A stretch of 64,000 nt of DNA from Trypanosoma brucei (lineage: Eukaryota): assembly GCA_000002445.1 (NCBI GenBank), contig AL929603.2:992001-1056000 (forward strand), in the 5' to 3' direction. Positions 1-46,312 of this stretch are shown here, one piece after another. Under the pieces are notes generated by a model. It was not told the origin of the DNA and ran no database searches. It saw nothing but the letters and a program-made list of their open reading frames with translations. The position numbers were made by a program, and so were the translations under genes. Each line of letters begins with the position of its first letter. Position 1 is the stretch's first letter.

Positions 1-3
1 ACA

Positions 4-1536: not shown

Positions 1537-1543
1537 ATAAGTA

Positions 1544-2789: not shown

Positions 2790-2792
2790 GTA

Positions 2793-18011: not shown

Positions 18012-21000
18012 ACACTTGTACGAATTTAGTGAGTGCTTTCTTAGGGCTGACTCGGGGTTCTGCAGTTCATATCGGCGCTCTGCGTCCCTGTTCCCGTGTT
18101 ACTCTTGGTACAAGCTGCATCTCCCCTTTCTCCACTTCCCCAGCATTAGTTGCTAAATTTATATTCACTTATTATGTCAAAAGATCATTGGAGTGTTGTG
18201 CAGTTGACTTTGTAAACGCCCCTTTTTACAAAAGCATAGGTATGAGCTGGGCGTATCTCTGCGGTGCCAGTGGACGTGTATATGTTGATGGAGCAGTCGG
18301 CTGGTGTCAAACTTCTTTTTTTCTGGCGTTTTCACTTTGGTGCCGTTCTTCCTGGTGGGGCGGTTACCATCCCTCATGATGTACTCGTGTTCCTTCTTTC
18401 CCCTTCTTTTTCTTTTTCCTCACTTGGCGTCTGCCAAATAAAATCCAGGCAATATCCGAGATGCTTGTTGAATTTTCAACCTTACAACTGTGGCTTATAT
18501 GCTGCAGACGGTTAGGGTGCGCCCAAACTTGCCTGGAAATACTAAGACACTATACTTTGTTTTTTTTCTTTATCTATGCGAGTGGGCCTTCCTAAAAAAT
18601 ACGGTACCGTTTCGGCAGGCCCCGTGTGGTGAAGGGCTCCACATTTTGTGTGAGAACTGTCGATATCCCTCTTATCACCTGCTTTGATGTCTTACACATC
18701 TTGTTCTTTGCTTAGTTTTCCTTTTGTTTTATTAGGATCAAACTGTGAATCCAGCAGCTAGCCCACTGTACTGGGGGATTCACCGTGTTTGTTTGCTTGT
18801 GCGTGTGGATCCGTGCTTGTGTTGGGTGCTGTTGCTTTCCGTAAAGTAATCCTGAAACACCAAGGACTGATTTCGTAGGAACCATAAAAGCAATTTTGCT
18901 TCTTTGGAGGTGGGTATCACCATTTTAGTAGTTGCTTAGACACCTGTGATTTCTTTTTTGGGACATATGCGCGTTGCTATACGGTGACTGTTGAGGTTTG
19001 GCTGCCACTGCCTTAAAAAGCAAGAGGCTTTGAGCGGCATCATTCGCTGTGCCATCTTGTAGTGGAAGACTGGAATTTGAGTTTACTAACAACTAATGTG
19101 AGCTGCAAAAGCCGCATAGTTTGTGGGCACGCAAGAGTCTGTACGGTCGATCTTTACTCACCTGAAGTGTTTTTGTTTTGTTTTGTCGGTGTTTTTTTCC
19201 ACTCGATGTGCGGACGTTAAATCCTTCGAAGGGTTGTGTTTTCACACATGTGGTTGAGGTGAATTGTTTAAATTCTGGGATGTTGTGCGTGCAACACTAC
19301 CATCCATATCAGTGGATGGGAATTAACGGGGAGATACCAGGGTTCCTATGCATCATGTGAGCAATTGCTTTCCCTGCTTGCCTTCGGGTAATGACTTCAC
19401 AACGTACCTTGTGTCGTGTTTGGGAAAATATTCTAACATCTCTGAAGGGCGTCTGATGCGCGGGATGAGGGATAACACCATTCATTTTTGGCTTAATGGA
19501 ATAGTGATGGTACATTTATCCGCCATGTTCACACCATGAGAGAGGAAGCTACATCCCAACGAAATCATTCCACCCCCTACGATGGTCGATCATATATGCC
19601 AAAATGTTCTGTGGATCTTTAAATAATGAGTGAAACGTTTACTAAACTTCTGAAACCTTGTGCAGGCGAAATATTGAGTAGATCCAACGGAAATAAGATA
19701 TAGCTTACACACCTCATCGCTAAACGCCACAAAAGTTTCTGTGTGTGTGTGTGGTAAAGGAAACAAACACAGAAAAAAGGTATAGACGAGGAGAACCGTC
19801 TGTATTCTTGTATTTGAACAGTACAAAGTTCTGCGGCGGACACAACAGGTGTTCTGACGTTTTATGGCTGACAGAAGCACAACATGCTCAAGCAAGAAAG
19901 GATTCACCCCTGAAATAGAGGGTGTGGAGCTATGAACATCACAGAAGTAACAAGGCGAGGAAATTGTGCGCTAACATCGCAAGAGAACAAGGGCTCTTTG
20001 TTACACACGAAGGGACAGTACTCTGTAGTGTATACGGATGCAAATGCCCACAGAGCAACCAAGTGGGCGGTGCGCATCAATTAAAACCGGACAGCAACAA
20101 TCCAGCATCAGTACAAAGGCGGGCGCAACTTCAGTGCTCGTGCAAACAACTTAATACTGAAATGCGCGTTCTGCGGCATCTGTTCGGGGATGAAAAAAGG
20201 CCCTGCAATAAGTCAAGGGTTATAACCGTTGCAGTGAAGCGCTATCTGCAGGCATTCACGTCGTCAAAAGACAGTATGAACTTAATAAAAATAATGGAAC
20301 ACAAAATGTCAAAACAAGAACTAATCCAACTGTCCCAACGGATGGAAGAAATGCAGCAGCGGATTCTGTAAAGTGAACGTATTGCAATTTCGTGGATGTA
20401 CGAGGAGAGGCGTTGACTTTGAAAGCAAAAGCTCGACACTATCAAAAATCAACCGAAGGGAAACACCGCAAGTACAGAGCCATGATGGTAAGTGACAGAG
20501 GAAAGTGAAATACTACCAACTGATGCAACAGTTACTGTTGATGAAGGGGGAGCCCAATGCCCTCAGTACAAGCATTAACACGCATTGGTGAGTGGCGTGA
20601 TCAACCACCTCAAGAAAAATGTAGAACACGTACCTCGTTACCAAATATCAGAGTCCAACAAAATCGTCACGGAGCTTCGGTATTGAAGTATTGAGTCTGC
20701 GCTTGTTAAGCCCTCATTGCTATAGAAAAAACAAAATAACACCTTAACTTTTACTTGCAGTTGAGGAGCTGCCAACATAAGCCGGTGCTTTCTTCATGCG
20801 AAGGAAACATAACGCCTCAAGGGCTGAGAGTGTATCAAGTGTTGACATGCCTCCACCTTCGCCCAACGGAAAAGGGCGTAGGAGTTTCGAACTGAATTCC
20901 ACTAAACTCGTCACCGCGACGAGAGACTGACAACTTCCAAAAAACTGGCGGTGTGGTTTCCAAAGTTGGTACGATTGGAACGGGTTCTAGCCTTTACGCC

Positions 21001-21264
21001 TTTGCTGCCAACAAGTTTGTACGGGCTGTGCGGTGCGATGTATTGATTACGCACATCCCACAACCCAGCAGGTGCGAGATCGATGAGTAGTCCTAAGTTT
21101 TTCTTAACTTCCAAATATCCAGAATGGGAAAAGAACCCTCCCAGCGGAAATGTTTCTAAGCGTGCTCTGTTTATAATTTTTACACGAACGAAGCGAGAAA
21201 ATGGCGACTTATCTTCGTAACTACTTTTTAAGAAAGGAGTTTAATTACATAAAGTGGAACAAAA

Positions 21265-22302
21265 ATGTGGAAGAAATCAGTGGAATTAATTGTGGGCGTG
21301 ACTTTAGTAATGACATATGTGTCTAGCGCGGAGCAGGTTATACTTAATACGAAGGAGTTCCAAACGTTGTGCGGATTTGTTAGGTTGACAGAACAAATAA
21401 ATGAGCTACTGGAGCGAATGAAGGGAAAGCCTGGAGTAGATGTGTTACCTCTACAAAAAAAAGTCAAAGACATATTGTTTGGAACGCGAATTGGAGATGT
21501 GGGAAAAATGAATTGGGGATATTATAGAGAACTGGATTGTGGCCAAGATAGTGGAAACCATCAAACTAAAGGGGGAGAAGCTCTCATGAAAGATCTTGTT
21601 TGCTTGTGCGAAGGAACGGACCAGCAATCGCCACCCGGGGGACTTTGTTATGAGGGAAACACCAAAAAAAATAGCCGCGGCGGATGGAATAATGCAGGAG
21701 CCCACAGAAACACATGGACCAGTTTGAAAAGTGAATGTACAAGGGAACATGGAGAAGGTCTGTTAGCCGAGAGTGAATTTCAAGAGATGAAAAAGCAACT
21801 CAAAGAGCGGCTAAAGGAGCGTAAAGATATTCGTACAAGCGCACGTGAAGGCACGTTTTATACTTATGGGGGTAACACAAGCAATGGATTGCAGACGTGC
21901 AGTGGGGCAAAATCAGACAACGACGGCATTTGTGTAATGTATCCAAAGGAATCTGATGGGGACAACACGAGTGGTATTGAATGGCTTAATGAGCTTGAAG
22001 GTCTGGTGAAAGAAGTTGAGAAAATGAACAAGGATGAAAGTGCAGGTGGAAACACAAAACCAAGTACGGACGGGCAACCAAGCATGGAAAAAAAGCCAAA
22101 GTCAAATACAAAGCCAAGCACAGGGGAGAACTCACCAGCTAAGGGGTTAGAAGGATCACAAAAAGATGGAAACCCAAATGCGCAAACAACTACCAGTACT
22201 GAGAAAGATGCCACTACGGCAAGACCACCAGAAGAACAAAAGAGTTCGTCCAAAATTATTTTACAATTTCTATGGATATTTTTATTTTGGTTGTTTGTAT
22301 AA
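21265..22302 (+). CDS. VSG-fold (ESAG2-superfamily-like) GPI-type surface protein with a Pro/Ser/Thr-rich C-terminal region
   Basis: 345 aa with a signal peptide (MWKKSVELIVGVTLVMTYVSSA), the motif KEFQTLCGFVRLT (compare EFETLC in the ESAG2-like gene and AETLC in the ESAG11-like gene, VSG N-domain-like), a KPST-type low-complexity stretch and a hydrophobic C-terminus (ILQFLWIFLFWLFV). Paralogue at 35246. Confidence 0.5.
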   Translation: MWKKSVELIVGVTLVMTYVSSAEQVILNTKEFQTLCGFVRLTEQINELLERMKGKPGVDVLPLQKKVKDILFGTRIGDVGKMNWGYYRELDCGQDSGNHQTKGGEALMKDLVCLCEGTDQQSPPGGLCYEGNTKKNSRGGWNNAGAHRNTWTSLKSECTREHGEGLLAESEFQEMKKQLKERLKERKDIRTSAREGTFYTYGGNTSNGLQTCSGAKSDNDGICVMYPKESDGDNTSGIEWLNELEGLVKEVEKMNKDESAGGNTKPSTDGQPSMEKKPKSNTKPSTGENSPAKGLEGSQKDGNPNAQTTTSTEKDATTARPPEEQKSSSKIILQFLWIFLFWLFV

Positions 22303-23394
22303 ATTGGCTCACAATCCACCATCACGTTTTTTTTTGGAAAATTCATGTCGGTAGAGGAAGTAAAAAGTAGCTACCGTTGCAGGGACCAGGAGACAGGGTG
22401 GAGGGAATGGAGGAATAATTTTTCTTTTTTACGCCCATTTAAAAAGTTTCTCAAACTGGATAATTTCAATGCTCAATAAAGAAAATAATCCGTTCACACT
22501 TATTAGTAACAACAAAATTTGGGAAGAGTAAAAGCAACAGGGAGTGAAACGTAAACAAATAGGGAATAAGCTTTATGACTTTTGAGGTTAAGCGAATACA
22601 GATTTTAATATCGTTGTTGTGGAATTATGGAATCTGGAAAGACAAAATATATTAAAAGAACCGCGTTACATGTACACAGGAAGTGAATCTTACGAGGCTT
22701 GCAATTGGGCCCATTCAAACATAAGAAACAGAAACAGTGTGACCTCTCTTTGGAAGCTTAGTTGCAGCATTTAAGAATGGAGAGCAAATAGATAGTTATG
22801 TATACAGGAAACCACTGAAACTACGGTCAAGCCCAAGCGTGTTGGTGTGGCGATGAAACCGCCTGCAAGTGGTGAAGGAAGCGCGAACAAAAGGATTCAC
22901 GAACTTCGATCAAGTCTCAATTTAAAAAAAAATTGAAAGAACTAGATGTGTGTTTTTTCATTTAATTGGTAGGAGAGTGAAGCCACCAAAAGACATATTA
23001 TCTAAGTTGATTTTTATTTGTGTAACCCTGGAGTTCGAGGTATATGGAAAGTTGGGAATCGCGCGAGGAAGCTGAGGAGCATTCAAGGGAACTATGGGTA
23101 GAAGAGAGACTTGAATACACTGACGTGCGTAAATAATGCCTAACGAAAATGAGGTGAGCGTGTACTGAAAGCTATGGAAGGGGTACTCGTGGCGTTTGAG
23201 AGGCTTCTTCATGGCATGGAATAACTGGAATGACATGTGATAAATTAATTTACATGTGTTTACTCCGATACCAAAATAAAATTATAATTGATTACCATAT
23301 AGCATGAATAGACAAATGCATGTACATTGGTCTACTTTTTGTTTATTTTTAGTGTTTTGTACCATTTGTTTGGCTCAACCCCCGGAGGAAGGAA

Positions 23395-24174
23395 ATGCTC
23401 GGGCTTACAACAATCTTATTTTCGACACTAATAGTGATTGCATCAAGCGGTGAATCGAAAGCTTCAGTGGGCACTTCGGTCGCCGAGCAGAGATGCGATG
23501 GATACTGGGACTCCTCCAGTGGGGGCGGACGGTGCCGGCCTTGGAGTACGGGAGCAGTCGATCCAAAGACTGTAAGCACGCGGCAGACTCCAGTTTCCCC
23601 AGTTCTTAAAAGCCAGAAACCAGATGTGACCGGTGACGATGCCCAAGTACACAAAATGCAGGAGGGTGCTGCATCGAGTCCAATCGTAGAGAGTGGAGCT
23701 AGTCAATCGGCTCCTGGTACTGAGGAAACCTCTAACAAAGTGACCGTGCAACTAAGTGGTGTTGCAATTGGTGGCAGGAGTGACAAGATTGAACAGCCAT
23801 CTCTCAGCTCCCGAATCTCCGAGCCGGCGGCAAACGCGGCGACTGACTACAGCGAACAGAAAGTGGGTCAAGAAGGGCAGAGATTAGGAACTGCAGAGGG
23901 ACTAGAAGGCGCGAAATACAACGGCAGAGATGGTGGGAAAGAGGGGAAAAAGGTTTCAGAGGAGCAAACACCAGGGCCTGATAGCCGGCACGCCTTGCAG
24001 ATGTCGATGCGGGGCGCAGCTTCGCCGCGAGGGCATAGCCATATGGCGGGAGTCACGACAGATGATTTGGATGCGCAGGACCCAGCACAAAACAGTGCCC
24101 ATGAGAGGAGAAGCGCGGCGCAAAAAAGATGTGCAGTAGTGGTCGCCGCAGCGTTCAGCTTCATATGCCTTTGA
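23395..24174 (+). CDS. Small secreted, GPI-signal-bearing, Gly/Ser-rich surface protein of unassigned family (paralogue at 43260)
   Basis: 259 aa with a signal peptide (MLGLTTILFSTLIVIASSG), the motif CDGYWDSS and a C-terminal hydrophobic tail (CAVVVAAAFSFICL). The 5' flank (cccccggaggaaggaaATG) and several hundred bp of both flanks are conserved with the 43260 copy. Confidence 0.45.
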   Translation: MLGLTTILFSTLIVIASSGESKASVGTSVAEQRCDGYWDSSSGGGRCRPWSTGAVDPKTVSTRQTPVSPVLKSQKPDVTGDDAQVHKMQEGAASSPIVESGASQSAPGTEETSNKVTVQLSGVAIGGRSDKIEQPSLSSRISEPAANAATDYSEQKVGQEGQRLGTAEGLEGAKYNGRDGGKEGKKVSEEQTPGPDSRHALQMSMRGAASPRGHSHMAGVTTDDLDAQDPAQNSAHERRSAAQKRCAVVVAAAFSFICL

Positions 24175-24652
24175 AACCCGTTGCTACAAGTCCGTGCATA
24201 AGTGTGCAAATGCCCAGTAAGGCGGGCGATGCGTGACACAGGGGCTGGACGGAGAGTCAGTAACTAAATCACAGCTTCGTTTACGAGAGAAACACGTGTG
24301 AAGCGTGATAACGACATAATTTTTGAAAGGACAGTGTGACAACAGGCGTGAATAACCCTAATGTAATCATGAGTAACGTGCAAGAGTGGAGTGAATGTCC
24401 TGAAAGGGAGGGAACCAAGTTAAAGTTCGTAATCTCATACAGCGAAAATGACACAATCGCAAGGGAATAAGCAGTAGACGGGTTCGATTAAACTAATCGG
24501 GTAAAACTCAGGTTCAATACTATTGGGAAGTTTGTGGTTGATGAACTTTTCAAAAGTGTAATGGACGTTGCTGCATATCAAAAGTTAACCTTATTGCGAG
24601 GATGCTGATGGCAGTCGTGAGGGCAAGCTGGATGAAATCGTAAATTTTAATT

Positions 24653-24862
24653 GTGGGGAATTTAGAGACCACCTTGTTAATCATATTTGATCCCCTCATC
24701 GCACCTTTTGCTGCTGGACAACCGCCTTCAGTACTTGCTGAAATGATGTCCAATATCACTTCACTTTACTTTCGTTTCAACGAAGTCCACAGGAGTTTCA
24801 CTTCGCTGCTGTTCGACACGGGTAGCATTGATAATGTGAAAAGCACTAATTCTACCATCTGA
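24653..24862 (+). pseudogene. ESAG1-like C-terminal fragment (truncated pseudogene)
   Basis: Encodes ...DPLIAPFAAGQPPSVLAEMMSNITSLYFRFNEVHRSFTSLL..., matching only the last 60 or so residues of the ESAG1-like genes. No N-terminal portion lies upstream. Confidence 0.55.
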
Positions 24863-26091
24863 CAGATACTTTCAGATATTTTCCCTCGTTCCATAATAAA
24901 AATAACTTTACGCGTGCGTGCTCTCATCCTTTTCAACTGATAATTTCTTTATCTGGAGTGTCCCTATCTTGGTTATCTTAATTGTGAGTGGTAGTGACTG
25001 TGGTTGTCGCTCCACCATTTGTGTTGTAGGGTAGTGGGGTGTGTTAATTCTTTCTGCATGTGAAGTGAGGAAGAAATGTTTGGTTTTATGCCCACAAGAG
25101 TAGTTTTGTTGCCATTTATTTTTTGGTTATGCAAAGAACCTGTGTGCAGTGAAGATAAATGAGAATTCATTGAAAGGATGAGCGGTTACGTATGTAACAT
25201 CCGTTTTTTTCTACCAGCGTATCTCTAAGGATGGTGACTGGTGGGTGTGGCAAATGATCTAAATGGAGGTAAAAACAGGGAGGGTCACTCGTTATTTTGG
25301 AACTGTTCTATTTTTTGGTGTGTTGGTGGCTAACATAATATCCCATCATGTTACCATATAATCAGGGTCTTCAGTAATGAGCATAATTGTTTGAGACGGT
25401 GTTTTGAGAATGCAACTTTTATCTTTTCTAGTGTATGGCTTAAGAAAATGGATGGCAAGCGGTTGTGCATGTTCACAAAGAGAGGAGCAAAGGCTGTTGT
25501 CAATACCTGTATGAAAGGAGGAGGATGTGCTAAATGAAGCTCAGTAGCAAAGTTGTGTGCATTGGATAAGGGTAAGACATACATGCAAATTAAGCGCGTA
25601 ATCTATTAGAGAGTAAAGGCATAAAGTAACAACTGAAAGTAATGGGGTCAGAGGAGGGTATGGAAAAACATAGCATGAATGTGCAAGTACTCATTATGGT
25701 AGTGGAAGTGTTCATCTGAAGAGTAGATGAGCTCATTGAGAAACTCAAGAAAGCGGTAGCACAACTAAGTTGGGAAAGTGTAATTACCTGGCATGGAGAG
25801 TAAGGAAGTGAATATGTTGGATGAAGAAATTAGGAGAAATGGTGTAACGAAAAGGAGAATACCGCAGTTGTGAGGAAGTCTAACGTTGATATCCAGCTTC
25901 AGGCAAGGGAACTCATGTAACTGCGTGTTTCCGACGTGTGTTACGTTGTGTTGGGTGCTGCTGTAATTGGTTTGTGTCAGGCACTTTCAAGATCCGATAT
26001 TTGCTTGTATATGTCTGTTGAGTGTGTCTGCCAATATCAGTAATGACTGTAATGATAAGTTTGTGATTCTCTCTTTTTGACTAATTGATGT

Positions 26092-27468
26092 ATGAACAGG
26101 ATCACGATGAGGTATGAAATAGTGTTTACTGTTGGGCTGTTTGCGACTGTTTTATCTCCTTCCTTTCAGGGCGATATGGTTGGGTACAAGTGGGCCACAG
26201 AATCTATAAACTGGAGTGCGATTACCAGGCTCGTCGGCGTCAACGACAAGTACCACAACGCTGGTGAGTTCGAGACACTGTGCAGGATTTACAGAATTAC
26301 GCAGGCTGAAGCTCCACAACCTTCCTTTGAGAATCGCGAAAAGGAAGGAGAGATTATGAATAAGTTGGAGGAAATGGTCAAACAGACGGCGGGCGCTGGT
26401 GTTAATAACAGTTCAAGCAAGTCAGGTAGCAGCACAACAGCATATCAGGAGATAAGGAAACTACTTGAAAAAGCGAAAAAACTGAAGGAAGAAATTGAGG
26501 CGAATAGGACAAAAGCCTTATACGCAAGTCGTTCTGCTGAAGATAATATGCTGAGAGCTGTGTATGGCGACGCTGTGGATGTTGCAAGAAATGAGAATAA
26601 AACTCTAGAGCAAGCCATGAGGGGAAACAAATCACTGCTGTTCAATAATGTCGAAAATGCGGGCACGAGCTGCGGTTCTTATGGAGACAAGCTAGTTGGA
26701 AAGACACTAATTAATGACTTTTTCTGCCTATGTGTGGGAGAGGCTAAGAAAGTACAAATCAAGAAAAGTGTAGCAAAAGATGAATATGACCCAACCTATG
26801 ACGGTGTTTATAATGGGTTTAATTGTCCCTGCAAGGATGAGATGAGGAGACCGAGAAGTGGTAGTTGGACCATGATGGCTGAATTTTGTGTAAGTGGGGA
26901 GGATAATTGTAACCCTGAAAACATAAAATACAACTATACTGAGGCATGGGATGTGATCAGCAAAGCTTGTGTATACAAGAATATTGCATCGAATGTGAAA
27001 ACCTTAAAGAGTGCACTAGCTCACTTTGATTCACTAGTAAATTTGGAACAGGATAAATATCAGGTGAGGGGTATTCTTGGGTATGCAAATGCTGAAGAAA
27101 ACACTGATCACATATGTACGGGTCATACTGCTGGATTCACATGTGTTAGTTACAATCACACACTTGAAAATGGTGGGATTCCATGGTACAATCGTCTTAC
27201 TAACGCTACTGAGCAACTGCAAGAAATGGATAAATATGCCAAGGAGGCTGACAGTCATCTTCATGAGTTGGAAGAATACCAACATGAGGCAGAGGAAATA
27301 TTTCTTGAGGTGAAGCTAGGAGGTGATGCGGAGCTATGGAAAAGTAGCCAAGGTAAGGGTGATGGTGAGGGTGATAATACAGTGGTAGATAATGATGGAC
27401 TTACTCATTTGAATATTGCAACTGGGGGTTTTACATTATTAGTTTTATCTCTTATTTGTACGCTTTAG
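26092..27468 (+). CDS. ESAG2-like GPI-anchored surface glycoprotein (copy 2). The homologous start is probably the ATG at 26107 (MRYEIVF...).
   Basis: 458 aa, near-identical to 4..1368 over most of its length including the C-terminal GPI signal. It carries discrete divergent patches (about 26167..26273 and 26734..26820). Confidence 0.6.
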   Translation: MNRITMRYEIVFTVGLFATVLSPSFQGDMVGYKWATESINWSAITRLVGVNDKYHNAGEFETLCRIYRITQAEAPQPSFENREKEGEIMNKLEEMVKQTAGAGVNNSSSKSGSSTTAYQEIRKLLEKAKKLKEEIEANRTKALYASRSAEDNMLRAVYGDAVDVARNENKTLEQAMRGNKSLLFNNVENAGTSCGSYGDKLVGKTLINDFFCLCVGEAKKVQIKKSVAKDEYDPTYDGVYNGFNCPCKDEMRRPRSGSWTMMAEFCVSGEDNCNPENIKYNYTEAWDVISKACVYKNIASNVKTLKSALAHFDSLVNLEQDKYQVRGILGYANAEENTDHICTGHTAGFTCVSYNHTLENGGIPWYNRLTNATEQLQEMDKYAKEADSHLHELEEYQHEAEEIFLEVKLGGDAELWKSSQGKGDGEGDNTVVDNDGLTHLNIATGGFTLLVLSLICTL

Positions 27469-27644
27469 TTTGCTTCTACGTTACCTATTATATTATGTTT
27501 TCTTTTGTTTTTTTCGCTTCTTTGTTGCTGCGTCTATGTGGTATAATATGCTTATGTATGTATGTTCATATGTGTGTTAATTTCTCATGAGATGTGAATG
27601 TTTTAAATTATCCCATATAAACTTGTTTTGTTTCTAGATAAGTA

Positions 27645-28739
27645 ATGAAGGTGGTATCACTTTTTCTTGCAGCGTGTCTGGTAATATTGGGTGCTGCCAG
27701 TAAGGCAGTGACGGAGCAGCCTTCCGGTAAGGCCATGACACTCAAGGGAGCTGAAACATTATGCAATCTCAGTCATGCCTTGAGGGTTGTGGGTGCTAAG
27801 ACTCAGGACAAACAAAAGAATGCGACAGAAATGGTGGATAAGTTTCGGGAGTGGAGACATCAGCATGGTGTAAAGGGGAGGACATGGAAGGCAATAGTGC
27901 AGGGTTTGGAGAAGATAGGTGTTGTTAATGAAAGTTACATGGAAGGTATAAAGAAAACATATGCGAAAATGGAAAAGATAATGAACAATACAGACAAGGC
28001 TCTGCAGGTAATGGATACTAGTTTTTTAAACATTGTAAGAGTTTCCTATCATGTTGTGAATGCATCACTGTCAATAGGACAAGTATTGAGGGATCTGGTA
28101 GTATTGTTTGAGCAAACAAAGGGAAGTGAAAATAGTTGGTGCTGTTTGGTAAAAACTGCCTCTTCAGGAAATGGATGTGGAAGTGATGGTAAACGCGAGT
28201 TGGCTAGCGCTCCAGAAGAGTGTAATATGTCTGTTACAAAGGATATGTCAGATGATGGTGTGTTGACTACGCTAAATAATTATAAAACCGATCAACCGGT
28301 TGAATTAACGGACAATAACAGCGCTAAGTGCTGGATCATGGGTACGGAAGAGGTTGCAAATGGAGGAGCTGGATCTTTTATAGTGGGAACTACTGGAGGT
28401 TTCGTTACCTATAGCCAAGGTTCTGCCGTTATCATGAAATCTAGTGACATGGTGCTCAAACTCATCAGCAATTACACTTCAATCAGAGACGGGTATGAAA
28501 GTATTACACAACAGTACCGTGATGTAGAGCCAACTCTTACTTCCTTTGCCGAACTTGAAAATAAACTAAAAAAATTGTTAACTCAGAGTCCGATGGTGCG
28601 TAGGTATTTCAAGGAGAATGGAAGGAAACGCAAGGGAACTGTCGGTGACGATGATGTTATAGATGAAGAAGGATTCACAATGAGGAAGCAACATACCCTA
28701 ATGGGTTTAATGGCTTTTGCAGCAGTTTTGGTTATGTGA
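27645..28739 (+). CDS. ESAG11-like GPI-anchored surface protein (copy 2)
   Basis: 364 aa, a paralogue of 1544..2662. It lacks the Gly-Ser repeat expansion present in copy 1. Confidence 0.55.
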   Translation: MKVVSLFLAACLVILGAASKAVTEQPSGKAMTLKGAETLCNLSHALRVVGAKTQDKQKNATEMVDKFREWRHQHGVKGRTWKAIVQGLEKIGVVNESYMEGIKKTYAKMEKIMNNTDKALQVMDTSFLNIVRVSYHVVNASLSIGQVLRDLVVLFEQTKGSENSWCCLVKTASSGNGCGSDGKRELASAPEECNMSVTKDMSDDGVLTTLNNYKTDQPVELTDNNSAKCWIMGTEEVANGGAGSFIVGTTGGFVTYSQGSAVIMKSSDMVLKLISNYTSIRDGYESITQQYRDVEPTLTSFAELENKLKKLLTQSPMVRRYFKENGRKRKGTVGDDDVIDEEGFTMRKQHTLMGLMAFAAVLVM

Positions 28740-28871
28740 TTCAATGTTATATTTTATATGCTACGGTTCTGTTATTGGTATTGTGCGTTTGTGATACCCA
28801 CTGCTTTTTTGTGTAATGGAGGACATGTGTTTTTCCTCTTTTATATCTTTCGCCACATGTGATTGTAGGTA

Positions 28872-29855
28872 ATGAAAGTTACGATAGCGGAATTGGTTGT
28901 TTTGTTATTTTCTGTAATTTGTATTGATGGGAAGGAGGAGAATGGGTGCACGTTGATAACAGATTATCACGGTGACGCACCTTTAAGTGAGTCCGTATGT
29001 TATCTCAGTTGTCTTTCAGATGCATTAAATAAATTATACGCTGATGGAGAGAACAAACTGTTTGTGAATGAGGAAGTGTATGCAAATGCATTTCGTATAT
29101 TGGATGATATGGAAGGAAGAACAGGTGAAAGTGTTAGATATTTGAGTATTATTAGCGGTGTAATGGAAGGGAAACATGATAAATTGAAAAAGCTTATATC
29201 GTATGGAAATGCAATGGGGGACCTTGTAGCTAAGGCAGGTGGATTATTTGCTGAGGTTAATGAAAGTGTGAGGGCAGTGAGGAAAGAAATACCTGGTGCC
29301 CTTATAAAAGTGAATAAATATTATACGGCTATTGCTGTGATCACAAGGACTGTGTGGGATGATGTTGAGGCATTGGAGCGTGACAGTGATCCGAACTGCC
29401 ATGGCGAAAAAATTAAAAATGTTGGTGAGTTCCAAGTTACGTGTGGCGAACATTTCTGCCCACTAAAAGAAGGTGTTAACGAAAGTACTCTTCAGAAATA
29501 TAAGGATGGATGCCTTGAAATAAATGTTCAAGATAAGTCTGGCCAAATAAGTGAATGCCTTAACTTACCAAGGAATAGTTTGTACAAAAATGGCGCAGTA
29601 AAGTATTCAAGTGACGGAACGAATTGGTATGGAAACGGTAATACTTATTTTCAACTCAAACTCCACGTTCATAGTATGCTTTCCCCTCTCACAATTCCCC
29701 TTGGTGCTGGCCAACCACCTTCTGCACCCCTAGACATGATGGCTAGTATTACTTCCCTGTACTCTCGCTTCAACGAGATACACAAAAACTTTACTTCATT
29801 GCTACTTAACACCAATTTTACTGGAATTGTGAATAGTAGTAATTCCGATTTTTAA
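28872..29855 (+). CDS. ESAG1-like membrane glycoprotein (copy 2)
   Basis: 327 aa. The N-terminal 130 or so residues are near-identical to copy 1, while the central and C-terminal regions diverge (mosaic). Confidence 0.6.
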   Translation: MKVTIAELVVLLFSVICIDGKEENGCTLITDYHGDAPLSESVCYLSCLSDALNKLYADGENKLFVNEEVYANAFRILDDMEGRTGESVRYLSIISGVMEGKHDKLKKLISYGNAMGDLVAKAGGLFAEVNESVRAVRKEIPGALIKVNKYYTAIAVITRTVWDDVEALERDSDPNCHGEKIKNVGEFQVTCGEHFCPLKEGVNESTLQKYKDGCLEINVQDKSGQISECLNLPRNSLYKNGAVKYSSDGTNWYGNGNTYFQLKLHVHSMLSPLTIPLGAGQPPSAPLDMMASITSLYSRFNEIHKNFTSLLLNTNFTGIVNSSNSDF

Positions 29856-41116: not shown

Positions 41117-42819
41117 CAAACATGTTCATCTACATTTCCTTTCATAAACATATGTGTTTATATACATGCTTTTTTGCGTTTCCGCACGCGCACACGTGCT
41201 TAACAATTACCTTCCGTTGTTGTTGATCCTTTATGTTTCCATGGGAAAGCCAAACATTCCGCGGTGGTGGTGTTATGGCGTCTTGAATGCTGAAATGTAT
41301 CATGTGTGTGTATACGAAGTGAAATCCTCTCTGGTTTCCTACTTTCCTGGGCTTCTGTGTGTGCTTGGGGCTGCAAAGATATTGTAGGATGTACAGCGGA
41401 AAAGTTGGTGCGCATAGTCGGATTGTGGTCACTACATTACGATGTTGGCTCCTGGAGGTGTGGCGGGGAAGCGTATGATCGGTAGGAGCTCTGTCGAAAG
41501 AGCCGTAGGCATGCACTCTAAAGCTTCGTTTGTTTTTCCGGCAGTTGTCGCCGTTTAAGTGATGCTAATTCAATGTTTGTTTGTATGCTATTTTGTTGCG
41601 GAAAATGCATCGAAAATAATGTGTAGGTGAGGCCGTTCTGTGGGGAATTGCTTAAAGGTGAATTTTGTGCGTGAAAAAGAGTTGGCGCGGAGTTAAGAAA
41701 GCGGGGGTATTAACCTAGGATTTAAGGCTTAGGAAGTTGAAAAAATCTTGATCTATCAGGAGGGGGAAGGGGTTTAGCCTCTTTGTTAGGGAATGTAGCT
41801 GGCGGACTTAATGTAATAGGTTATGCATTTTTCACGTAGTATTATGAGAAAGAAACTCGTGTCCGCTCCAGTTAAAACGACAAGAATAAATAGCGGGCCT
41901 TCTGAAAGGGAAACTCCTAAGCATATTACATTTCACAGTCTTTATGCAGGCAAAATAGAGGACTGACAACGAATTCTTTTTACGGTTTTATTTCCTTTAG
42001 TGGTAAATTATTACGAGTAGTTAAATGAAAATGTAGTTGGTAGTATTTATGCATGGCTTACTGTAGGCGATGCCGCATATGTCCGCCACTGCGGAAACCT
42101 TAGCGATTGAGGAGAAATTTAAATTGTCGTGCGAATTTGTTAGGGCATCACAACTAAAGAAAACATGTCTCTTGGAGGAATAAATGAAAAGGCGAAAGAG
42201 ACGGAAGTTTCTTGTTTCCTCCCCTTCATTTTGCTGATTGATGACCATCGTGGCCACCATATTCCAGCGAAGAGGAGGGAATGCGTTTGCGCACATAATG
42301 TGACAAGACATGATAGTGTGGGACTCAGCCTTGGAGAACGGGTCGCTACGCATTAAAACTCCATTAGGTGGAGATTATTACACACCCGCTTCGCCAGTGG
42401 ATGGTGACCACGGTTCGCACGGTGGTCTAAAGGGACGGTCTCCAGTGCAGCCCGCTATCCCTTCCTATATCCACTGTGGCGTATCACCCCGCGAAGTCAC
42501 CACTAGTTATAGAGCTAATGGCATGTATACGACTTTGTTGGGTTCCCGTTAGACAGGGTCCTCAACCGCGAAACATGAAGTAGCCACATATTCGCGGATC
42601 AATTTGCGCTGCACACACGTAAATTTCTTCAACGTCCAAAAGTGCACTCGCCCTGGCACCACAGCAGTCACTGTGGCTGATATGCCAGTGTTCATGTGGT
42701 AACGATTAGCTTCCCCAGAAGAACTTAATTTTTCCAGGGTGCTAGATCCTGACACCACGGTGAGGCTGCTACCACTAATGTCAGGGAAATTCCATGATTA
42801 AAAAAATTCCAAGAGCAGA

Positions 42820-44330
42820 CGTATGTTTTTTCGTTTAATTTGTAGTAAAGTGAAGCCACCAAGAGGTATGTTGTCTATGTCGAATTTTATTTTGTGTAAC
42901 CCCAAGGTTTGGAGAATATGGAAAATGGGGAATCGTGTAAAGCACCAGAGAGCCTATTAAAAAAATTACTGGTGGTGGAAGCGCTTAAGTGCGCCAACGT
43001 GCTTACACGATACTTAAAAATTGAAGTTCAAAGTCACTGAAGGTGATATAAGGGACCCTCATAGCCTTTGGGAAGCTTTTTCATGGGAAGATGTAACCGG
43101 AATGGTATGTGATATATTAATTTGTGTGTATTCGCTCTAACTCTAAATTTTATTACATTTGTTTACCGTATATCATATATGCTCATACGTTGGTCACTTT
43201 TATTTGTTTCTTAGCAGTGTTTTGTGTAATTTGTTTGGCCCAGCCCCCGGAGGAAGGCAATGGTCGGGCTTGCAACAGTTCCATTATTGACGCTAACATT
43301 GCTTGCACTATGCGGCGAGTCGGAGGCTTCAGTTGTGGTTTCATCTGGCAGCCAGGAATGTGAGGGATACTGGGACTCCTCCAGGAGGTACCACTGCACA
43401 TTACACAATACAGGTGGCGAAGGCCAGAGGAGGGTGCGTCTACCACCAACTCCAGCGGCCCCAGCTCGTGACAAAAAAACGTCAGGTGGGACCGGTGTCG
43501 ACACCCAAGGGCAAGAAGCACGGAAGGATACAGTATTGAGTTCAACCAGTGATGGTCGAACTAGTCAACCGCCTCCGGCCAATAAAGAAACATTTCCTGC
43601 AGTAAACGGGAAATCAAGTGACAGTGTAGGCGGCGGCGTGAGCAAAGATGAAGTTGTGCAGAGATCTGAAAGCTTCAAAGTCTCGGCGCCGGCGACATCC
43701 CCAGCACGTGACTACAGCAAACCGAAAGTGGATCGAGCAAGGCAAGAATTGGGAGACGGGGAAGGTTACGGCAGAGAAAGTGTAAAAGGAAATGCGATCG
43801 TAGGGAAGCAGGTAGCAGGGCCAGATGGCGGAAATGTGGTGCGACCACCTCCACAGGATGTAGTTTCGTGGCCTGAGCAAAAAAATACACAGGAAGCGGA
43901 AACTATGGGGATACAATCGATCCAAAACGGAAAAGATATTTCAGATCGAATAACACAGCATGACAACAGCCATGTGATGCGGCCGCCGACTCGGGGGGTG
44001 GTTTCGGTGGCTGAGGAAAACGCACAAGAAATAATACGAGAAGACATAGATGGCGAGGCCGCCGGAGAAAACAGCTCACGAAAGGAGAAAGGTGCAGCGC
44101 ACAAAGGGCACGTGATGCTGCTTTCCGCAGTATTGGGTCTCACGTGCTCCTGAAAATCATTACTTCAAATCTGTGAACGGGGATGCACACACCTAATAAG
44201 GGCGGGGATGCACAATGTGCATACTTCAGCGCGAGAATCAGTAACTATTCTACAGCTTCGTTCACGGGATAAACACTTATGGAACGTAGTAAAGACATAA
44301 TTTCCAGAAGGACGATGTTGCAACGAGTGT
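42820..44330 (+). repeat. Duplicated module B (small GPI-protein gene plus about 400 bp of 5' and about 170 bp of 3' flank), copy 2. Copy 1 is at about 22940..24330.
   Basis: 5' flank: gtgaagccaccaa(a/g)ag…ttttatttgtgtaaccc…atatggaaa…gggaatcg. 3' flank: cagtaacta…acagcttcgtt(t/c)acg…gacataattt. Confidence 0.6.
43260..44153 (+). CDS. Small secreted, GPI-signal-bearing, Gly-rich surface protein, a paralogue of 23395..24174
   Basis: 297 aa with a signal peptide (MVGLATVPLLTLTLLALCG), the motif CEGYWDSS and a C-terminal hydrophobic tail (HVMLLSAVLGLTCS). The conserved 5' flank is cccccggaggaaggcaATG. Confidence 0.45.
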   Translation: MVGLATVPLLTLTLLALCGESEASVVVSSGSQECEGYWDSSRRYHCTLHNTGGEGQRRVRLPPTPAAPARDKKTSGGTGVDTQGQEARKDTVLSSTSDGRTSQPPPANKETFPAVNGKSSDSVGGGVSKDEVVQRSESFKVSAPATSPARDYSKPKVDRARQELGDGEGYGRESVKGNAIVGKQVAGPDGGNVVRPPPQDVVSWPEQKNTQEAETMGIQSIQNGKDISDRITQHDNSHVMRPPTRGVVSVAEENAQEIIREDIDGEAAGENSSRKEKGAAHKGHVMLLSAVLGLTCS

Positions 44331-46312
44331 AGATAGCTCCAGCATAATCATAAGGAAAATGAAAAAGTAGAGCGAACGATTTTTGTGGAAGAAGATAGGT
44401 TAATGGCTTCCAGACCAGAAGGGGAAAGCCTATTAAAGGCAGACAGGGTAACAAACGAGAAACAGTTAAGAGCATCACAACATCTTTGATGAGGCAGGGA
44501 AAATAAAATTCGATTGTGTTGAAGAGTCCATTCCCGTTTTTCTTTTGCATTCAAAAAAAAAACATAATAGGAATCGCTTATCACTTGGGGGATACATTAT
44601 GAAGAGAGTAAATGTAGGTTACGAAGAATACTATGGAGATCACAAGCTAATATGAAGAGAGAAGCACAGAACGGTTCGGCGGCTAGAATTAGGGGTTCTT
44701 CGGTAACTTGAAGACCTTTTTAAACTGATACTAATAAAAAATATATATTGAAAAAAAAGTATAATGAATGGGCGGAGCGCATGCACATGGTCCGGGTACA
44801 TGAAAAGTTATAACTAAGTGTTGAAAAAAACTCTAAAAGCAGGTAATCGTAACGAAAGAGGTGAGGGATAGCCAAAGCGGTGCCTGAACGAAATGTGATT
44901 AATTAAAATAAAACCCAACTTATTTTCAATAGCGCCCCTGTGTGTCTTTGCTTTAATAGTCTTTATGAGAGTTAAACCACAACCCATTTAATTAACTGGA
45001 CGGAGAATTCGTAAGGCAGTAATTCTAACATTTACATACTTCAACTGCCGGGACAGAATAAAAATAATGATACGACATCAAACAGGAGATATTTTGACAA
45101 ATGTGCTATGAGCTGTTTTCACTCCTATGATTGGCTGTATATTTGTGGATGTCAACAATGTTTGACAGTGATAGAAGTCAACAATTGAATATTATTCTGC
45201 TATTCCAGTTATAACTGATAGTTTTCAAACTCTTATTTTATAAGGGTATCAGCTTAGGCGTTGTTGTGTTGGTGGTAAGTTTTTGGCGTTCCCTAAAAGA
45301 GTATCTCCGGTTGCAACACTTTTGGCTCACAGTGTCAAGCGATGTTTGGGAGAAAATTCGTAGAGTATTGTGAAACTTCTGTGCGTGATGGTCGGGAGAC
45401 CTCATCATGTCGCAAAAGAAAACATACACTCATGATATTTTTGTTATTTAAAGAGATTGGCATGACACAACGAAATTGTAGAAGTGGATATGGGACTTCG
45501 AGGGAAAGCTTGGAGTGCTAGCATCAAGCAGGGGGTTAGGGTTATGTCTAGGCTTCGTGGGATTCTAATATAAAGTGTGATGTGAGGAAAAGCGTTTTTT
45601 GTTGCTCAGAGAGCGGTAAAATTCAATAGCAGCTTCTACTCTAAGGTGCGGCGTTTCTCCACACTTGTCCCTTTTTAGATCAGAGCAGCGTTGGTACTAT
45701 GTAGGTATCCAGACTTTGTACAGCGCCGGAGGCTTTGTGCGTGTGTGCTTGTCAGCTGCACTTGCGTCACCCAAATACTTGCTTTGCTGATGGTGTTCAA
45801 ACCACTTGTTTGACGAACGCAAACGCAATTTTACTTATTTTGTCACCGATAAATAATTTTACTCCTTAAGGCGTAGTATTTCTATCGAAAAGGGGCAAGT
45901 TAAGTAAAAAATACTTTACCTGAGTTTCTGTTGGCTATCATATGCAACATTGTGGCCTAGAAAAGCTAAGGTGTGAGGATAAAGTTTAACGTGAAGGAGA
46001 TTTGTTGAAGTCTACGCTTCAGTAAGAAACGTGGGCATTTTTAACTGTAAGTATACGTTTAATAAAACATTGATGTGTCAGAACCGTCCTCGTCCAGTAA
46101 TAGCTCCACTATTTTTTATTTCCTCCGCACTGAAGGTAAGCTATGTTGACGACACAATGGGAAATGATGTGGTGGTGATTAGGGTAGCGTTTTTCCATGG
46201 GGTTAAATTTCCCTCTGTTAGTACTGTCTAAACAGCAATATAAACAAAGCGCCCGCCATTGATTGGATAAATGTTGCAATAATCCGTTTTCACGTGATTA
46301 CATGACCGCCAC

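What the first reader, a model, noticed from the sequence alone, without database searches (positions are those of the whole stretch)
23395..24174. Duplicated small Gly/Ser-rich secreted GPI-type protein genes with conserved flanks, family not recognised
The 259-aa and 297-aa proteins (23395, 43260) share a signal peptide, a CxGYWDSS motif, long low-complexity Gly/Ser/Pro/Ala-rich middles and hydrophobic C-termini. About 400 bp upstream and 170 bp downstream are also conserved, so the whole transcription or processing unit was duplicated. They do not obviously resemble ESAG1-8 or ESAG11 and might be ESAG9-like or novel. Their coding sequences have diverged more than their flanks, which is unusual.
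Basis: seen in the sequence. Interest (0 to 1): 0.5.

Follow-up and report, generated by a model that had tools for sequence, protein, structure and literature searches.

The report
Two known ESAG9 genes, Trypanosoma brucei
The two small secreted-protein genes are already-annotated members of the known ESAG9 family of Trypanosoma brucei (chromosome 1, Tb927.1.5080 and almost certainly Tb927.1.5220), so the finding is ordinary apart from an upstream non-coding block that is better conserved than the proteins.

Summary
ORFs 23395-24174 (259 aa) and 43260-44153 (297 aa) are paralogues (29% identity, E 7e-21). They share a signal peptide, a C-x-G-Y-W-D-S-S...C motif, a disordered middle and a hydrophobic C-terminus. 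About 470 bp upstream is conserved, and about 145 bp of the 3' flank.

The family is recognised. Both proteins are exact matches to T. brucei brucei TREU927 chromosome 1 entries named ESAG9 (CAJ16714.1, CAJ16728.1). Copy A is Tb927.1.5080; this places the window at Tb927_01 992001-1056000. Copy B is Tb927.1.5220 by inference. A profile search of 1.84 billion proteins found 19 relatives. Sixteen of the 17 whose names could be retrieved are ESAG9/ESAG proteins of T. brucei or T. equiperdum, and none is from outside that group.

Published work describes ESAG9 as:
- T. brucei-specific, with predicted signal peptide and GPI signal;
- enriched in stumpy forms;
- repressed by REG9.1 through its UTRs;
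- of unknown biochemical function.

Both window genes appear in those datasets.

The "flanks better conserved than CDS" pattern holds family-wide for the upstream block only: 68% against 58% identity in 10 of 10 pairs. UTR-based regulation, rapid change of a disordered protein and patchy gene conversion best explain it. Verdict: already known, low interest.

The parts
23395..24174 (+). ESAG9 copy A, CDS of 259 aa (= Tb927.1.5080, CAJ16714.1 / XP_001219199.1). Signal peptide, C34...C47 motif, disordered middle, C-terminal hydrophobic GPI-like tail. It has no N-x-S/T sequon.
   Evidence: ORF. Exact database match. Gene ID and chromosomal coordinates 1015395-1016174 (780 bp, forward) in Rico 2017 Table S2. 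Sequence features.
43260..44153 (+). ESAG9 copy B, CDS of 297 aa (CAJ16728.1 / XP_001219212.1; Tb927.1.5220 by inference). A 'long form' with an insertion of about 40 aa that is shared with P0010 and P0011. One N-glycosylation sequon, N271-S-S.
   Evidence: ORF. Exact match named ESAG9. Features. Nearest relatives. Tb927.1.5220 is the only chromosome 1 gene among the eight annotated ESAG9 genes in Jensen 2009. The accession spacing 16714 to 16728 matches locus tags 5080 to 5220; this step is inference.
22926..23394 (+). Conserved non-coding block upstream of copy A (about -470 to -1). It is shared with copy B and with T. equiperdum ESAG9 loci.
   Evidence: BLASTN at 69.7% to 42800-43257. Multiple alignment A4. 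Family-wide, the 470 nt upstream have mean identity 67.8% against 57.8% for the CDS, in 10 of 10 pairs. Homology with B and with L004 begins at A coordinates 22926-22928.
42800..43259 (+). Conserved non-coding block upstream of copy B.
23335..23352 (+). Polypyrimidine tract (23335-23350) followed by AG (23351-23352). Putative trans-splice acceptor, which would give a 5'UTR of about 42 nt. It lies in the most conserved 20-nt bin of the upstream region.
   Evidence: Sequence read. Conservation of 0.76 in that bin. Its function is inferred from the known rules of trypanosome trans-splicing and was not tested.
43197..43217 (+). Polypyrimidine tract (43197-43212) followed by AGs at 43213-43214 and 43216-43217. 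Putative trans-splice acceptor of copy B.
   Evidence: aligned with the copy A site.
23211..23240 (+). Positionally conserved 9-codon upstream ORF (MAWNNWNDM*) at -184. Counterparts: B 43083-43112 (MGRCNRNGM*), L005 (MAWNDWNYM*), L006 (MGRSNHNDM*).
   Evidence: Whether it lies inside any mature mRNA is unknown.
23044..23136 (+). Second positionally conserved upstream ATG/uORF (MESWES...). Counterparts: B 42918-43040, L004 and L006 (MENKKSC...).
   Evidence: Its significance was not tested.
24252..24395 (+). Conserved 3'-flank block of copy A (+78 to +221 after the stop), probably within the 3'UTR.
   Evidence: BLASTN at 70.8% to 44233-44376. The same block matches T. b. gambiense locus L001 (3850-3995) and T. 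b. equiperdum locus L003 (3453-3596). Alignment A5.
44233..44376 (+). Conserved 3'-flank block of copy B.
21265..22302 (+). VSG-related (VR, b-type VSG domain) gene immediately upstream of copy A. The same VR-ESAG9 pairing is seen in L003 and L006 and is described for expression site BES11.
   Evidence: Pfam VSG_B, E 6.5e-28. Synteny. Hertz-Fowler 2008.

Best explanation
These are two chromosome-internal members of the ESAG9 gene family of Trypanosoma brucei. Copy A is Tb927.1.5080 and copy B is Tb927.1.5220. They lie in an array of ESAG2-like, ESAG11-like, ESAG1 and VSG-related genes near the right end of chromosome 1.

Shown here:
- Exact identity to the deposited ESAG9 entries.
- Profile-level homology confined to proteins of the T. 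brucei group; of the 17 hits whose names could be retrieved, 16 are labelled ESAG9 or ESAG and one is a 'T. brucei spp.-specific protein'.
- The family architecture: a signal peptide, two invariant cysteines, a disordered and fast-changing middle, a conserved C-terminal ...ENS(T)Q...AHK(R) segment, and a hydrophobic tail of about 13 residues.

Taken from the literature:
- ESAG9 mRNAs are kept low in dividing slender bloodstream forms and rise in the non-dividing, tsetse-transmissible stumpy forms.
- This control is post-transcriptional. It acts through the 3'UTR, with a contribution from the 5'UTR, and involves the RNA-binding repressor REG9.1.
- The proteins are predicted to be surface-bound or released. 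Their function is unknown.

Inferred:
- Each gene is transcribed within a polycistron.
- Each mRNA is trans-spliced at the conserved polypyrimidine/AG site about 42 nt before the ATG.
- Each protein enters the secretory pathway and is then GPI-anchored or shed.
- The flanks are better preserved than the coding sequence for three reasons. They carry the regulatory and RNA-processing signals common to the family. The disordered protein body is under weak or diversifying selection. Patchy gene conversion keeps reshuffling the copies.
For: Identity and family:
- Both proteins are 100% matches to NCBI entries named ESAG9, on a contig of 1,064,672 bp from T. b. brucei TREU927.
- Rico 2017 Table S2 lists Tb927.1.5080 at Tb927_01 1015395-1016174, forward. 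That is 780 bp, the length of copy A. It is labelled Family 2, with REG9.1-RNAi log2FC 0.86, adjusted P 0.011, AveExpr 11.03.
- Jensen 2009 reports Tb927.1.5220 (ESAG9) up 4.68-fold in stumpy forms, and all eight annotated ESAG9 genes up 2- to 30-fold.
- A profile HMM of the two window proteins plus two relatives found 19 proteins at E <= 1e-3 among 1.84 billion. Names could be retrieved for 17. Sixteen are ESAG9/ESAG proteins of T. brucei or T. equiperdum, and one (P0018) is a T. b. gambiense 'T. brucei spp.-specific protein'. Two hits (P0013 and P0020) are old archive sequences with no name of their own, although the cluster holding P0013 contains two ESAG9-named T. equiperdum proteins.
- The family alignment has L12, C34 and C47 invariant, plus a shared signal peptide and C-terminal tail.
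- Jackson 2013 Table S1 gives Fam2 (ESAG9): signal peptide yes, GPI yes, no TM helix, 15 copies in T. brucei, none in T. congolense or T. vivax, highest signal in stumpy forms.

Regulation (literature): 3'UTR control, a 34-nt bifunctional element, a 5'UTR contribution and REG9.1.

Sequence evolution:
- AlphaFold2 mean pLDDT 43.5.
- dN/dS 0.57 for A against B. The three codon positions are almost equally diverged: 62, 59 and 54% identity.
- Family-wide pN 0.39, pS 0.53, and upstream p-distance 0.32.
- Mosaicism: the syntenic T. b. equiperdum locus is 92-99% identical over most of the flanking sequence but 66-79% in a patch at about 23000-23750, rising to 88% by 24000; shorter divergent patches also lie further upstream at 21500-21999 and 22250-22499.
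- The 3' two-thirds of copy A and the sequence downstream of it are 91% identical to a T. b. gambiense locus on another contig, whose 5' part is unrelated.
Against: - B = Tb927.1.5220 is inferred, not read from a coordinate table.
- No tool here could test secretion, GPI anchoring, splice-site use or stage-specific expression. Those steps rest on the literature for the family or on sequence rules.
- Copy A has no N-glycosylation sequon, whereas ESAG9 proteins are reported to be N-glycosylated. That report (Barnwell 2010) is from my own knowledge; the paper could not be opened.
- The REG9.1 effect on Tb927.1.5080 is modest, at 1.8-fold.
- The REG9.1-associated MEME motifs reported by Rico 2017 are absent from both 3' flanks.
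- The 34-nt element of Monk 2013 could not be checked because the paper is not held.
- pS is probably inflated by misaligned codons in the disordered middle. 'Flank slower than neutral' is therefore suggestive, not proven.
Confidence: 0.9

Rival explanations
1. The flanks are conserved because they serve as, or result from, recombination homology. On this reading the ESAG9 units behave as cassettes. Homology on either side supports gene conversion, which homogenises the flanks while the middle is swapped or diversified. Regulatory constraint would not be the cause.
For: - Three different upstream contexts join the ESAG9 unit at the same boundary, about A 22926: the VR gene for A, L003, L005 and L006; other sequence for B; other sequence for L004.
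- The orthologous T. b. equiperdum locus differs from copy A by a replaced patch at about 23000-23750, set within sequence that is otherwise mostly 92-99% identical.
- Copy A is a 5'/3' mosaic relative to the T. b. gambiense locus L001, with the breakpoint near 23632.
- Jackson 2013 Table 2 reports significant recombination (PHI < 0.0001) for the ESAG families whose rows were visible, ESAG1-5. The ESAG9 row was not seen.
Against: - The flank identity between lineages is a uniform 63-72%, with no near-identical tracts. That is not what recent homogenisation would leave.
- The downstream flank is not better conserved than the CDS family-wide: 54% against 58%.
- The replaced patch in L003 includes most of the upstream block rather than being bounded by it.
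- The two explanations are not exclusive.
Confidence: 0.3
2. One or both ORFs are decaying pseudogenes or non-functional relics of the ESAG9 family, not working genes.
For: - dN/dS is 0.57-0.8 across the family, with nearly equal divergence at all codon positions.
- The syntenic copy in T. b. equiperdum is disrupted; only a 124-aa C-terminal ORF is called.
- The T. b. gambiense relative P0002 has a frameshift that reads into the 3'UTR and loses the hydrophobic tail.
- Copy A has lost the family's C-terminal N-x-S/T sequon.
- Copy B has no close orthologue in the databases.
Against: - Both ORFs are intact over 259 and 297 codons, in sequence so diverged that chance retention of an ORF is unlikely.
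- Both keep every family landmark: start codon, signal peptide, both cysteines and the C-terminal tail.
- Tb927.1.5080 mRNA is abundant and responds to REG9.1.
- Tb927.1.5220 mRNA is stumpy-enriched and differentially expressed in field isolates.
- From my own knowledge, not tested here: T. equiperdum is monomorphic and is not transmitted by tsetse, so loss of a stumpy-stage gene there would not be surprising.
Confidence: 0.07
3. The proteins belong to a new family unrelated to ESAG9, or are T. brucei members of the T. cruzi MASP family.
For: - No Pfam model matches either protein.
- The literature mentions a remote ESAG9-MASP resemblance (Jackson 2013).
- The layout of conserved ends with a variable middle is like that of MASP (my own knowledge).
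Against: - Both are exact matches to ESAG9 entries.
- All 19 profile hits are from the T. brucei group, and none is a MASP or any T. cruzi protein at E <= 1e-3 among 1.84 billion representatives.
Confidence: 0.02

Closest known systems
ESAG9 (expression site-associated gene 9; cell-surface phylome Family 2) of Trypanosoma brucei and T. equiperdum
   Same: - Exact sequence identity to annotated members.
- Size of 250-300 aa, signal peptide, two invariant N-terminal cysteines, and a C-terminal conserved segment with a hydrophobic GPI-like tail.
- Restricted to the T. brucei group.
- Located outside expression sites, next to VSG-related and ESAG1/2/11-like genes.
- Stumpy-enriched or REG9.1-responsive mRNAs are reported for these very gene IDs.
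   Different: Nothing that affects membership. Copy A lacks the C-terminal N-x-S/T sequon that most members carry (consensus ENSTQ). Copy B is a long form with an insertion of about 40 aa.
ESAG9-EQ (Tb927.5.4620), the member whose 3'UTR control was dissected (Monk 2013; Rico 2017)
   Same: Same family, and co-regulated on REG9.1 depletion (Rico 2017 Table S2: Tb927.5.4620 at 1.99 and Tb927.1.5080 at 0.86 log2FC).
   Different: The window genes respond more weakly. The mapped 34-nt element could not be compared, and the MEME motifs reported for REG9.1 targets are not found in the window 3' flanks.
MASP (mucin-associated surface proteins) of Trypanosoma cruzi
   Same: Works alike in layout: a conserved signal peptide and GPI-signal ends, a highly variable middle, and a multigene family in recombining regions. 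The literature proposes remote homology (Jackson 2013).
   Different: No MASP was detected by the profile search at E <= 1e-3. It is a different genus, has hundreds of copies, and is not linked to a stumpy stage.
[quoted passage not shown]
   Same: Small (230-270 aa), T. brucei-specific, with signal peptides, and co-regulated with ESAG9 by REG9.1.
   Different: They have a transmembrane helix and no detectable sequence similarity. None was found in this window.

Membership tests
ESAG9 (T. brucei surface phylome Family 2) | Significant sequence similarity to named ESAG9 proteins | tested here: met
   Both are exact matches to entries named ESAG9. The profile search gave E values of 1e-118 to 5e-4 for 19 proteins. 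Names were retrieved for 17: sixteen are labelled ESAG9/ESAG and one (P0018) is a 'T. brucei spp.-specific protein'. Two archive sequences (P0013, P0020) carry no name of their own.
ESAG9 (T. brucei surface phylome Family 2) | N-terminal signal peptide | tested here: met
   Hydrophobic N-terminal segment in both, aligned across 18 members. It is the only helix in the AlphaFold2 model. No dedicated signal-peptide predictor was available. Jackson 2013 Table S1 scores the family SP = y.
ESAG9 (T. brucei surface phylome Family 2) | Conserved pair of N-terminal cysteines (C-x2-[YW]W...C) | tested here: met
   C34 and C47 are invariant in all 18 aligned members. A has CDGYWDSS and B has CEGYWDSS. 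This 'defining feature' comes from my own alignment, not from a published definition.
ESAG9 (T. brucei surface phylome Family 2) | C-terminal hydrophobic tail or predicted GPI-addition signal (many but not all members) | tested here: inconclusive
   Both have a hydrophobic tail of about 13 residues. It is preceded by small residues that could serve as the GPI attachment site: S-A-A in copy A and G-A-A in copy B. No GPI predictor or experiment was available. The family is scored GPI = y in Jackson 2013, and 'some members' in PMC10919850.
ESAG9 (T. brucei surface phylome Family 2) | Restricted to the T. brucei group (absent from T. congolense and T. vivax) | tested here: met
   There are no hits outside the T. 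brucei group among 1.84 billion representatives. This agrees with Jackson 2013 and Rico 2017.
ESAG9 (T. brucei surface phylome Family 2) | mRNA enriched in stumpy forms and repressed by REG9.1 | not testable with these tools
   Literature only. Tb927.1.5220 is up 4.68-fold in stumpy forms. Tb927.1.5080 shows log2FC 0.86 on REG9.1 RNAi, adjusted P 0.011.
ESAG9 (T. brucei surface phylome Family 2) | N-glycosylation (reported for expressed members; Barnwell 2010, from my own knowledge) | tested here: inconclusive
   Copy B has one sequon, N271-S-S. Copy A has none. Most members carry ENST near the C-terminus. This is a property of tested members, not a criterion for membership.
MASP (T. cruzi) | Detectable sequence homology to MASP proteins | tested here: not met
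   There is no T. cruzi protein among the profile hits at E <= 1e-3. No profile-profile comparison against a MASP alignment was possible here.
Any Pfam family or solved structure | Match to a curated domain model or a PDB chain | tested here: not met
   Pfam gives no family for either protein. The best PDB hit has E 0.95, which is chance.

The most novel reading that the evidence does not exclude
The most novel reading not excluded concerns the roughly 470-nt non-coding block upstream of ESAG9 genes.

- It is better conserved across deeply diverged family members (p-distance 0.32) than the proteins' non-synonymous sites (0.39) or synonymous sites (0.53).
- It starts at the same boundary in three different genomic contexts.
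- It carries two positionally conserved upstream ORFs.

It could therefore be a dedicated cis-acting module. One possibility is an alternatively spliced long leader whose uORFs keep ESAG9 translationally silent in slender forms. That would be the unpublished '5'UTR contribution' mentioned by Rico 2017. Another possibility is a family-specific recombination boundary. I found no description of this block in the papers I could search.
Probability: 0.3. Interest if true: 0.35.

Novelty: already known. Interest (0 to 1): 0.12.

Why it matters
As a gene finding it adds nothing. Both genes are annotated, named and present in published expression datasets.

ESAG9 itself still matters because it is one of the most strongly induced families in the tsetse-transmissible stumpy stage, and its function is unknown.

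The only part that might repay work is the family-wide upstream non-coding block and its conserved small ORFs. These could help to explain how ESAG9 is kept silent in slender forms, beyond the 3'UTR elements already mapped.

Tried and rejected
- Pfam on both proteins: no family.
- PDB sequence search with the family profile: only a chance hit, E 0.95.
- AlphaFold2 with a 4-sequence alignment: pLDDT 43.5, so no fold to search. I did not run fold search, because a low-confidence model gives meaningless matches.
- Rfam over the whole window: 0 hits.
- RNAalifold on the upstream block from six loci: -14.3 kcal/mol over 488 columns, covariation term +0.51. There is no support for a conserved RNA structure.
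- Search for the REG9.1-associated motifs ATGCGAATAA, GAAAACATGC and GCGTACATGA in the 3' flanks: absent from A. B has only one 1-mismatch hit, at +641.
- The bacterial promoter/terminator scan does not apply to a trypanosome and was ignored.
- Retroposition of an mRNA as the origin of the unit: rejected. I saw no spliced-leader-like sequence on reading the 5' boundary, and did not see a poly(A) remnant at the 3' boundary (alignments); neither was formally searched for.
- Coding potential of the upstream block: no ORF is shared between A and B on either strand.
- Barnwell 2010 and Monk 2013 could not be opened. Statements about N-glycosylation and shedding, and about the 34-nt element, rest on my memory or on secondary citations.
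- Exact look-ups of the TREU927 proteins for more loci failed, because that genome is not in the contig index. The family-wide flank analysis therefore uses T. equiperdum and T. b. gambiense loci.
- A third ESAG9 copy in the window: none found.
Full report
**1. The observation**

They are homologous over their full length, at 29% identity, E 7e-21. There is no third copy in the window.

Both proteins share these features:
- a hydrophobic N-terminus;
- the motif C-[DE]-G-Y-W-D-S-S at residues 34-41, followed by a second cysteine;
- a hydrophobic C-terminal tail of about 13 residues.

The middle is rich in Ser, Ala and Gly (about 35% in A, 29% in B). It is not low-complexity by entropy, at 3.1-3.8 bits per 30 residues. 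It is better described as disordered: an AlphaFold2 model has mean pLDDT 43.5, and its only helix is the signal peptide. That model used an alignment of only four sequences.

The flanks are similar, as claimed:
- 22926-23392 against 42800-43257: 69.7% identity.
- 24252-24395 against 44233-44376: 70.8% identity.
- In one global alignment, the 400 nt upstream are 68.4% identical with 14 gap columns. The CDS is 59.1% identical with 126 gap columns. The first 230 nt downstream are 63% identical. Similarity is lost beyond about +230.

**2. What it is**

Exact look-up shows both proteins are already in NCBI and UniProt. They come from Trypanosoma brucei brucei TREU927, on a contig of 1,064,672 bp, which I take to be chromosome 1. 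[quoted passage not shown]

Table S2 of Rico et al. 2017 lists Tb927.1.5080 at Tb927_01 1015395-1016174, forward strand. That is 780 bp, the length of copy A. The window therefore corresponds to Tb927_01 992001-1056000.

Copy B is then Tb927.1.5220. It is the only chromosome 1 gene among the eight ESAG9 genes annotated at the time (Jensen 2009). The spacing of the accession numbers also fits. This identification is an inference.

I tested membership independently of the database labels. A profile built from the two window proteins and two relatives was run against 1.84 billion representative proteins. It found 19 hits at E <= 1e-3.
- All 19 come from the T. brucei group: T. b. brucei, T. b. 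gambiense and T. equiperdum.
- Names could be retrieved for 17. Sixteen are labelled ESAG9 or ESAG, and one is a T. b. gambiense 'T. brucei spp.-specific protein'.
- Two are old archive sequences with no name of their own, although one of them clusters with two ESAG9-named T. equiperdum proteins.
- No T. cruzi MASP or any other organism appears.

An 18-member alignment shows the family architecture:
- a signal peptide;
- invariant C34 and C47;
- a very variable middle;
- a C-terminal consensus D-x-D-x-Q-x-S-x-E-N-S-T-Q...A-H-K-R followed by the hydrophobic tail.

Both window proteins have all of these, with one exception. Copy A has QNSAHE in place of the N-x-S/T sequon and no sequon anywhere else.

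A and B are not each other's closest relatives. A groups with forms of about 256-261 aa. B groups with forms of about 296-300 aa (P0010, P0011), which share an insertion of about 40 residues.

**3. Genomic setting**

On the + strand the window reads as follows (Pfam):

| Coordinates | Feature |
|---|---|
| 4-1368 | ESAG2-like, b-type VSG domain |
| 1544-2662 | ESAG11-like |
| 2793-3767 | ESAG1 |
| 15735-18011 | LRR protein |
| 21265-22302 | VSG-related gene |
| 23395-24174 | ESAG9 copy A |
| 26092-29855 | second ESAG2-like / ESAG11-like / ESAG1 triplet, 87% identical to the first |
| 35246-36607 | another VSG-related gene |
| 40145-41116 | ESAG1 |
| 43260-44153 | ESAG9 copy B |
| 47808-48794 | ESAG1 |
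| about 49.4-54.2 kb | ingi-type retrotransposon |

An a-type VSG-like ORF lies on the opposite strand at 58169-59584.

The VR-ESAG9 pairing seen at copy A is also present at the T. b. equiperdum and T. equiperdum loci L003 and L006. It is the arrangement described for the only expression site that carries ESAG9, BES11 (Hertz-Fowler 2008).

**4. How it most likely works**

From the literature:
- ESAG9 is a diverse, T. brucei-specific family with about 15 copies. It has a predicted signal peptide and GPI signal and no transmembrane helix (Jackson 2013 Table S1).
- Its mRNAs are among the most strongly induced in stumpy forms (Jensen 2009).
- Expression is controlled post-transcriptionally through the 3'UTR, including a 34-nt bifunctional element. 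There is an additional, unpublished contribution from the 5'UTR.
- The RRM protein REG9.1 represses the whole family (Rico 2017; review; PMC10919850).
- The function of the protein is unknown. It is predicted to be surface-bound or released.
- From my own knowledge of Barnwell 2010, which I could not open: expressed ESAG9 proteins are N-glycosylated and can be shed.

For the two window genes specifically:
- Tb927.1.5220 rises 4.68-fold in stumpy forms. It is also among the genes that differ between T. b. rhodesiense field foci.
- Tb927.1.5080 is abundant and rises 1.8-fold on REG9.1 knock-down.

Inferred from the sequence:
- A conserved polypyrimidine tract and AG lie about 42 nt before each ATG (23335-23352 and 43197-43217). 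This is the best conserved 20-nt bin of the upstream region and is the likely trans-splice acceptor.
- The residues S-A-A (copy A) and G-A-A (copy B), about 19 residues from the C-terminus, fit a GPI attachment site.

**5. 'Flanks more conserved than CDS'**

I fetched further ESAG9 loci: L001 from T. b. gambiense, L003 from T. b. equiperdum, and L002, L004, L005 and L006 from T. equiperdum.

Across five distinct lineages (A, B, L004, L005, L006):

| Region or measure | Result |
|---|---|
| 470 nt upstream, identity | 62.7-72.1%, mean 67.8% |
| CDS, identity | 52.9-62.1%, mean 57.8% |
| Upstream better than CDS | 10 of 10 pairs |
| 230 nt downstream, identity | mean 53.9%, not better than the CDS |
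| Shuffled-sequence baseline | 42% |
| Mean pS / pN / upstream p-distance | 0.53 / 0.39 / 0.32 |

One caveat applies: codons in the disordered middle are partly misaligned, which inflates pS and pN. In the well-aligned first 50 codons of A against B, pS is 0.42 and pN is 0.34.

Homology of B and of L004 with the A-type loci begins at the same point, about A 22926. It starts just after an A-run and just before a conserved polypyrimidine tract and AG at about 22949-22972.

The block holds many ATGs. Two upstream ORFs are positionally conserved:
- about -340 to -350: ME[NS]...;
- about -175 to -184: a 9-codon M-[AG]-[WR]-x-N-x-N-x-M-stop.

There is no evidence for a conserved RNA structure and no Rfam match.

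**6. Mosaicism**

- The syntenic T. b. equiperdum locus (L003) is 92-99% identical to the window over most of 21000-26000.
- It drops to 66-79% in a patch at about 23000-23750 and is back to 88% by 24000. That patch covers most of the upstream block and the 5' part of the CDS.
- Shorter divergent patches lie further upstream, at 21500-21999 (72-84%) and 22250-22499 (77%).
- The ORF is disrupted in the main patch in that assembly.
- From 23632 onwards, copy A is 91% identical to a T. b. gambiense locus at the start of another contig (FN554970.1). The 5' part of that locus is unrelated.
- The protein called at the gambiense locus (P0002) carries a frameshift that reads into the conserved 3'UTR.

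These loci are therefore being reshuffled by patchy gene conversion. This is a second contributor to the uneven conservation, besides regulatory constraint. It is the main rival to a purely regulatory explanation.

**7. Comparison with what is known, and verdict**

Every membership feature I could test for ESAG9 is met or is compatible. The resemblance to MASP is only architectural at the sensitivity available here.

The finding is an already-known, already-annotated pair of ESAG9 genes.

The residual point of interest is modest. The upstream block of about 470 nt is conserved family-wide and contains conserved uORFs. I did not find it described in the papers I could search. It may correspond to the unpublished 5'UTR effect noted by Rico 2017. 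Spliced-leader mapping and reporter assays would settle whether it is part of an mRNA and whether it matters.

Noticed in passing
window 1-3771 and 26104-29859: The ESAG2-like (b-type VSG domain), ESAG11-like and ESAG1 gene triplet is duplicated as a unit at 87% identity. Further ESAG1 copies lie at 40145-41116 and 47808-48794 (about 72% identity).
   Followed up: partly
window 24683-24864: A relic of the 3' end of an ESAG1 gene lies about 510 bp downstream of ESAG9 copy A. It is 90.6% identical to 3588-3715 and 72-76% identical to the ends of the other ESAG1 genes. This suggests an ESAG1 gene was truncated there by recombination.
   Followed up: partly
L003 about 2400-3000 (T. b. equiperdum CM010672.1), equivalent to window 23000-23900: The syntenic orthologue of copy A has a patch of only 66-79% identity within sequence that is otherwise mostly 92-99% identical. 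Its 5' half contains stop codons, so only a 124-aa C-terminal ORF is called. This is either gene conversion plus pseudogenisation or an assembly error. From my own knowledge, not tested: T. equiperdum makes no stumpy forms, so loss of a stumpy-stage gene there would be unsurprising.
   Followed up: partly
L001 3001-3834 (T. b. gambiense FN554970.1, first 6.5 kb of the contig): The ESAG9 protein P0002 has a C-terminus that is a frameshifted read-through into the conserved 3'UTR, so the hydrophobic tail is lost. From window 23632 onwards this locus is 91% identical to copy A, but its 5' part and upstream region are unrelated.
   Followed up: partly
window 49439-54228: A non-LTR retrotransposon of the ingi type, with consecutive ORFs carrying endonuclease, reverse transcriptase (827 aa) and RNase H (504 aa) domains. 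It sits just before the change in composition and strand.
   Followed up: no
window 56000-64000, with ORF 58169-59584 on the minus strand: GC skew and AT skew change sign after about 56 kb. The only large ORF there is on the minus strand and has a weak a-type VSG domain match (E 1.4e-6). This looks like a strand-switch into a VSG array.
   Followed up: no
window 15735-18011: A 758-aa leucine-rich-repeat ORF (ESAG8-like or LRRP) lies within the ESAG-like array. The listed ORF begins with TTG, so the real start is probably a downstream ATG.
   Followed up: no
window 23044-23136, 23211-23240, 42918-43040, 43083-43112: Two positionally conserved upstream ORFs lie within the conserved block before both ESAG9 genes and before T. 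equiperdum copies. One is a 9-codon M-[AG]-[WR]-x-N-x-N-x-M-stop. It is unknown whether they lie within any mRNA.
   Followed up: partly
window 21265-22302 and 35246-36607: Two VSG-related genes (b-type VSG domain) share only 28% identity. The first lies directly upstream of ESAG9 copy A, the same VR-ESAG9 pairing as reported for expression site BES11.
   Followed up: partly
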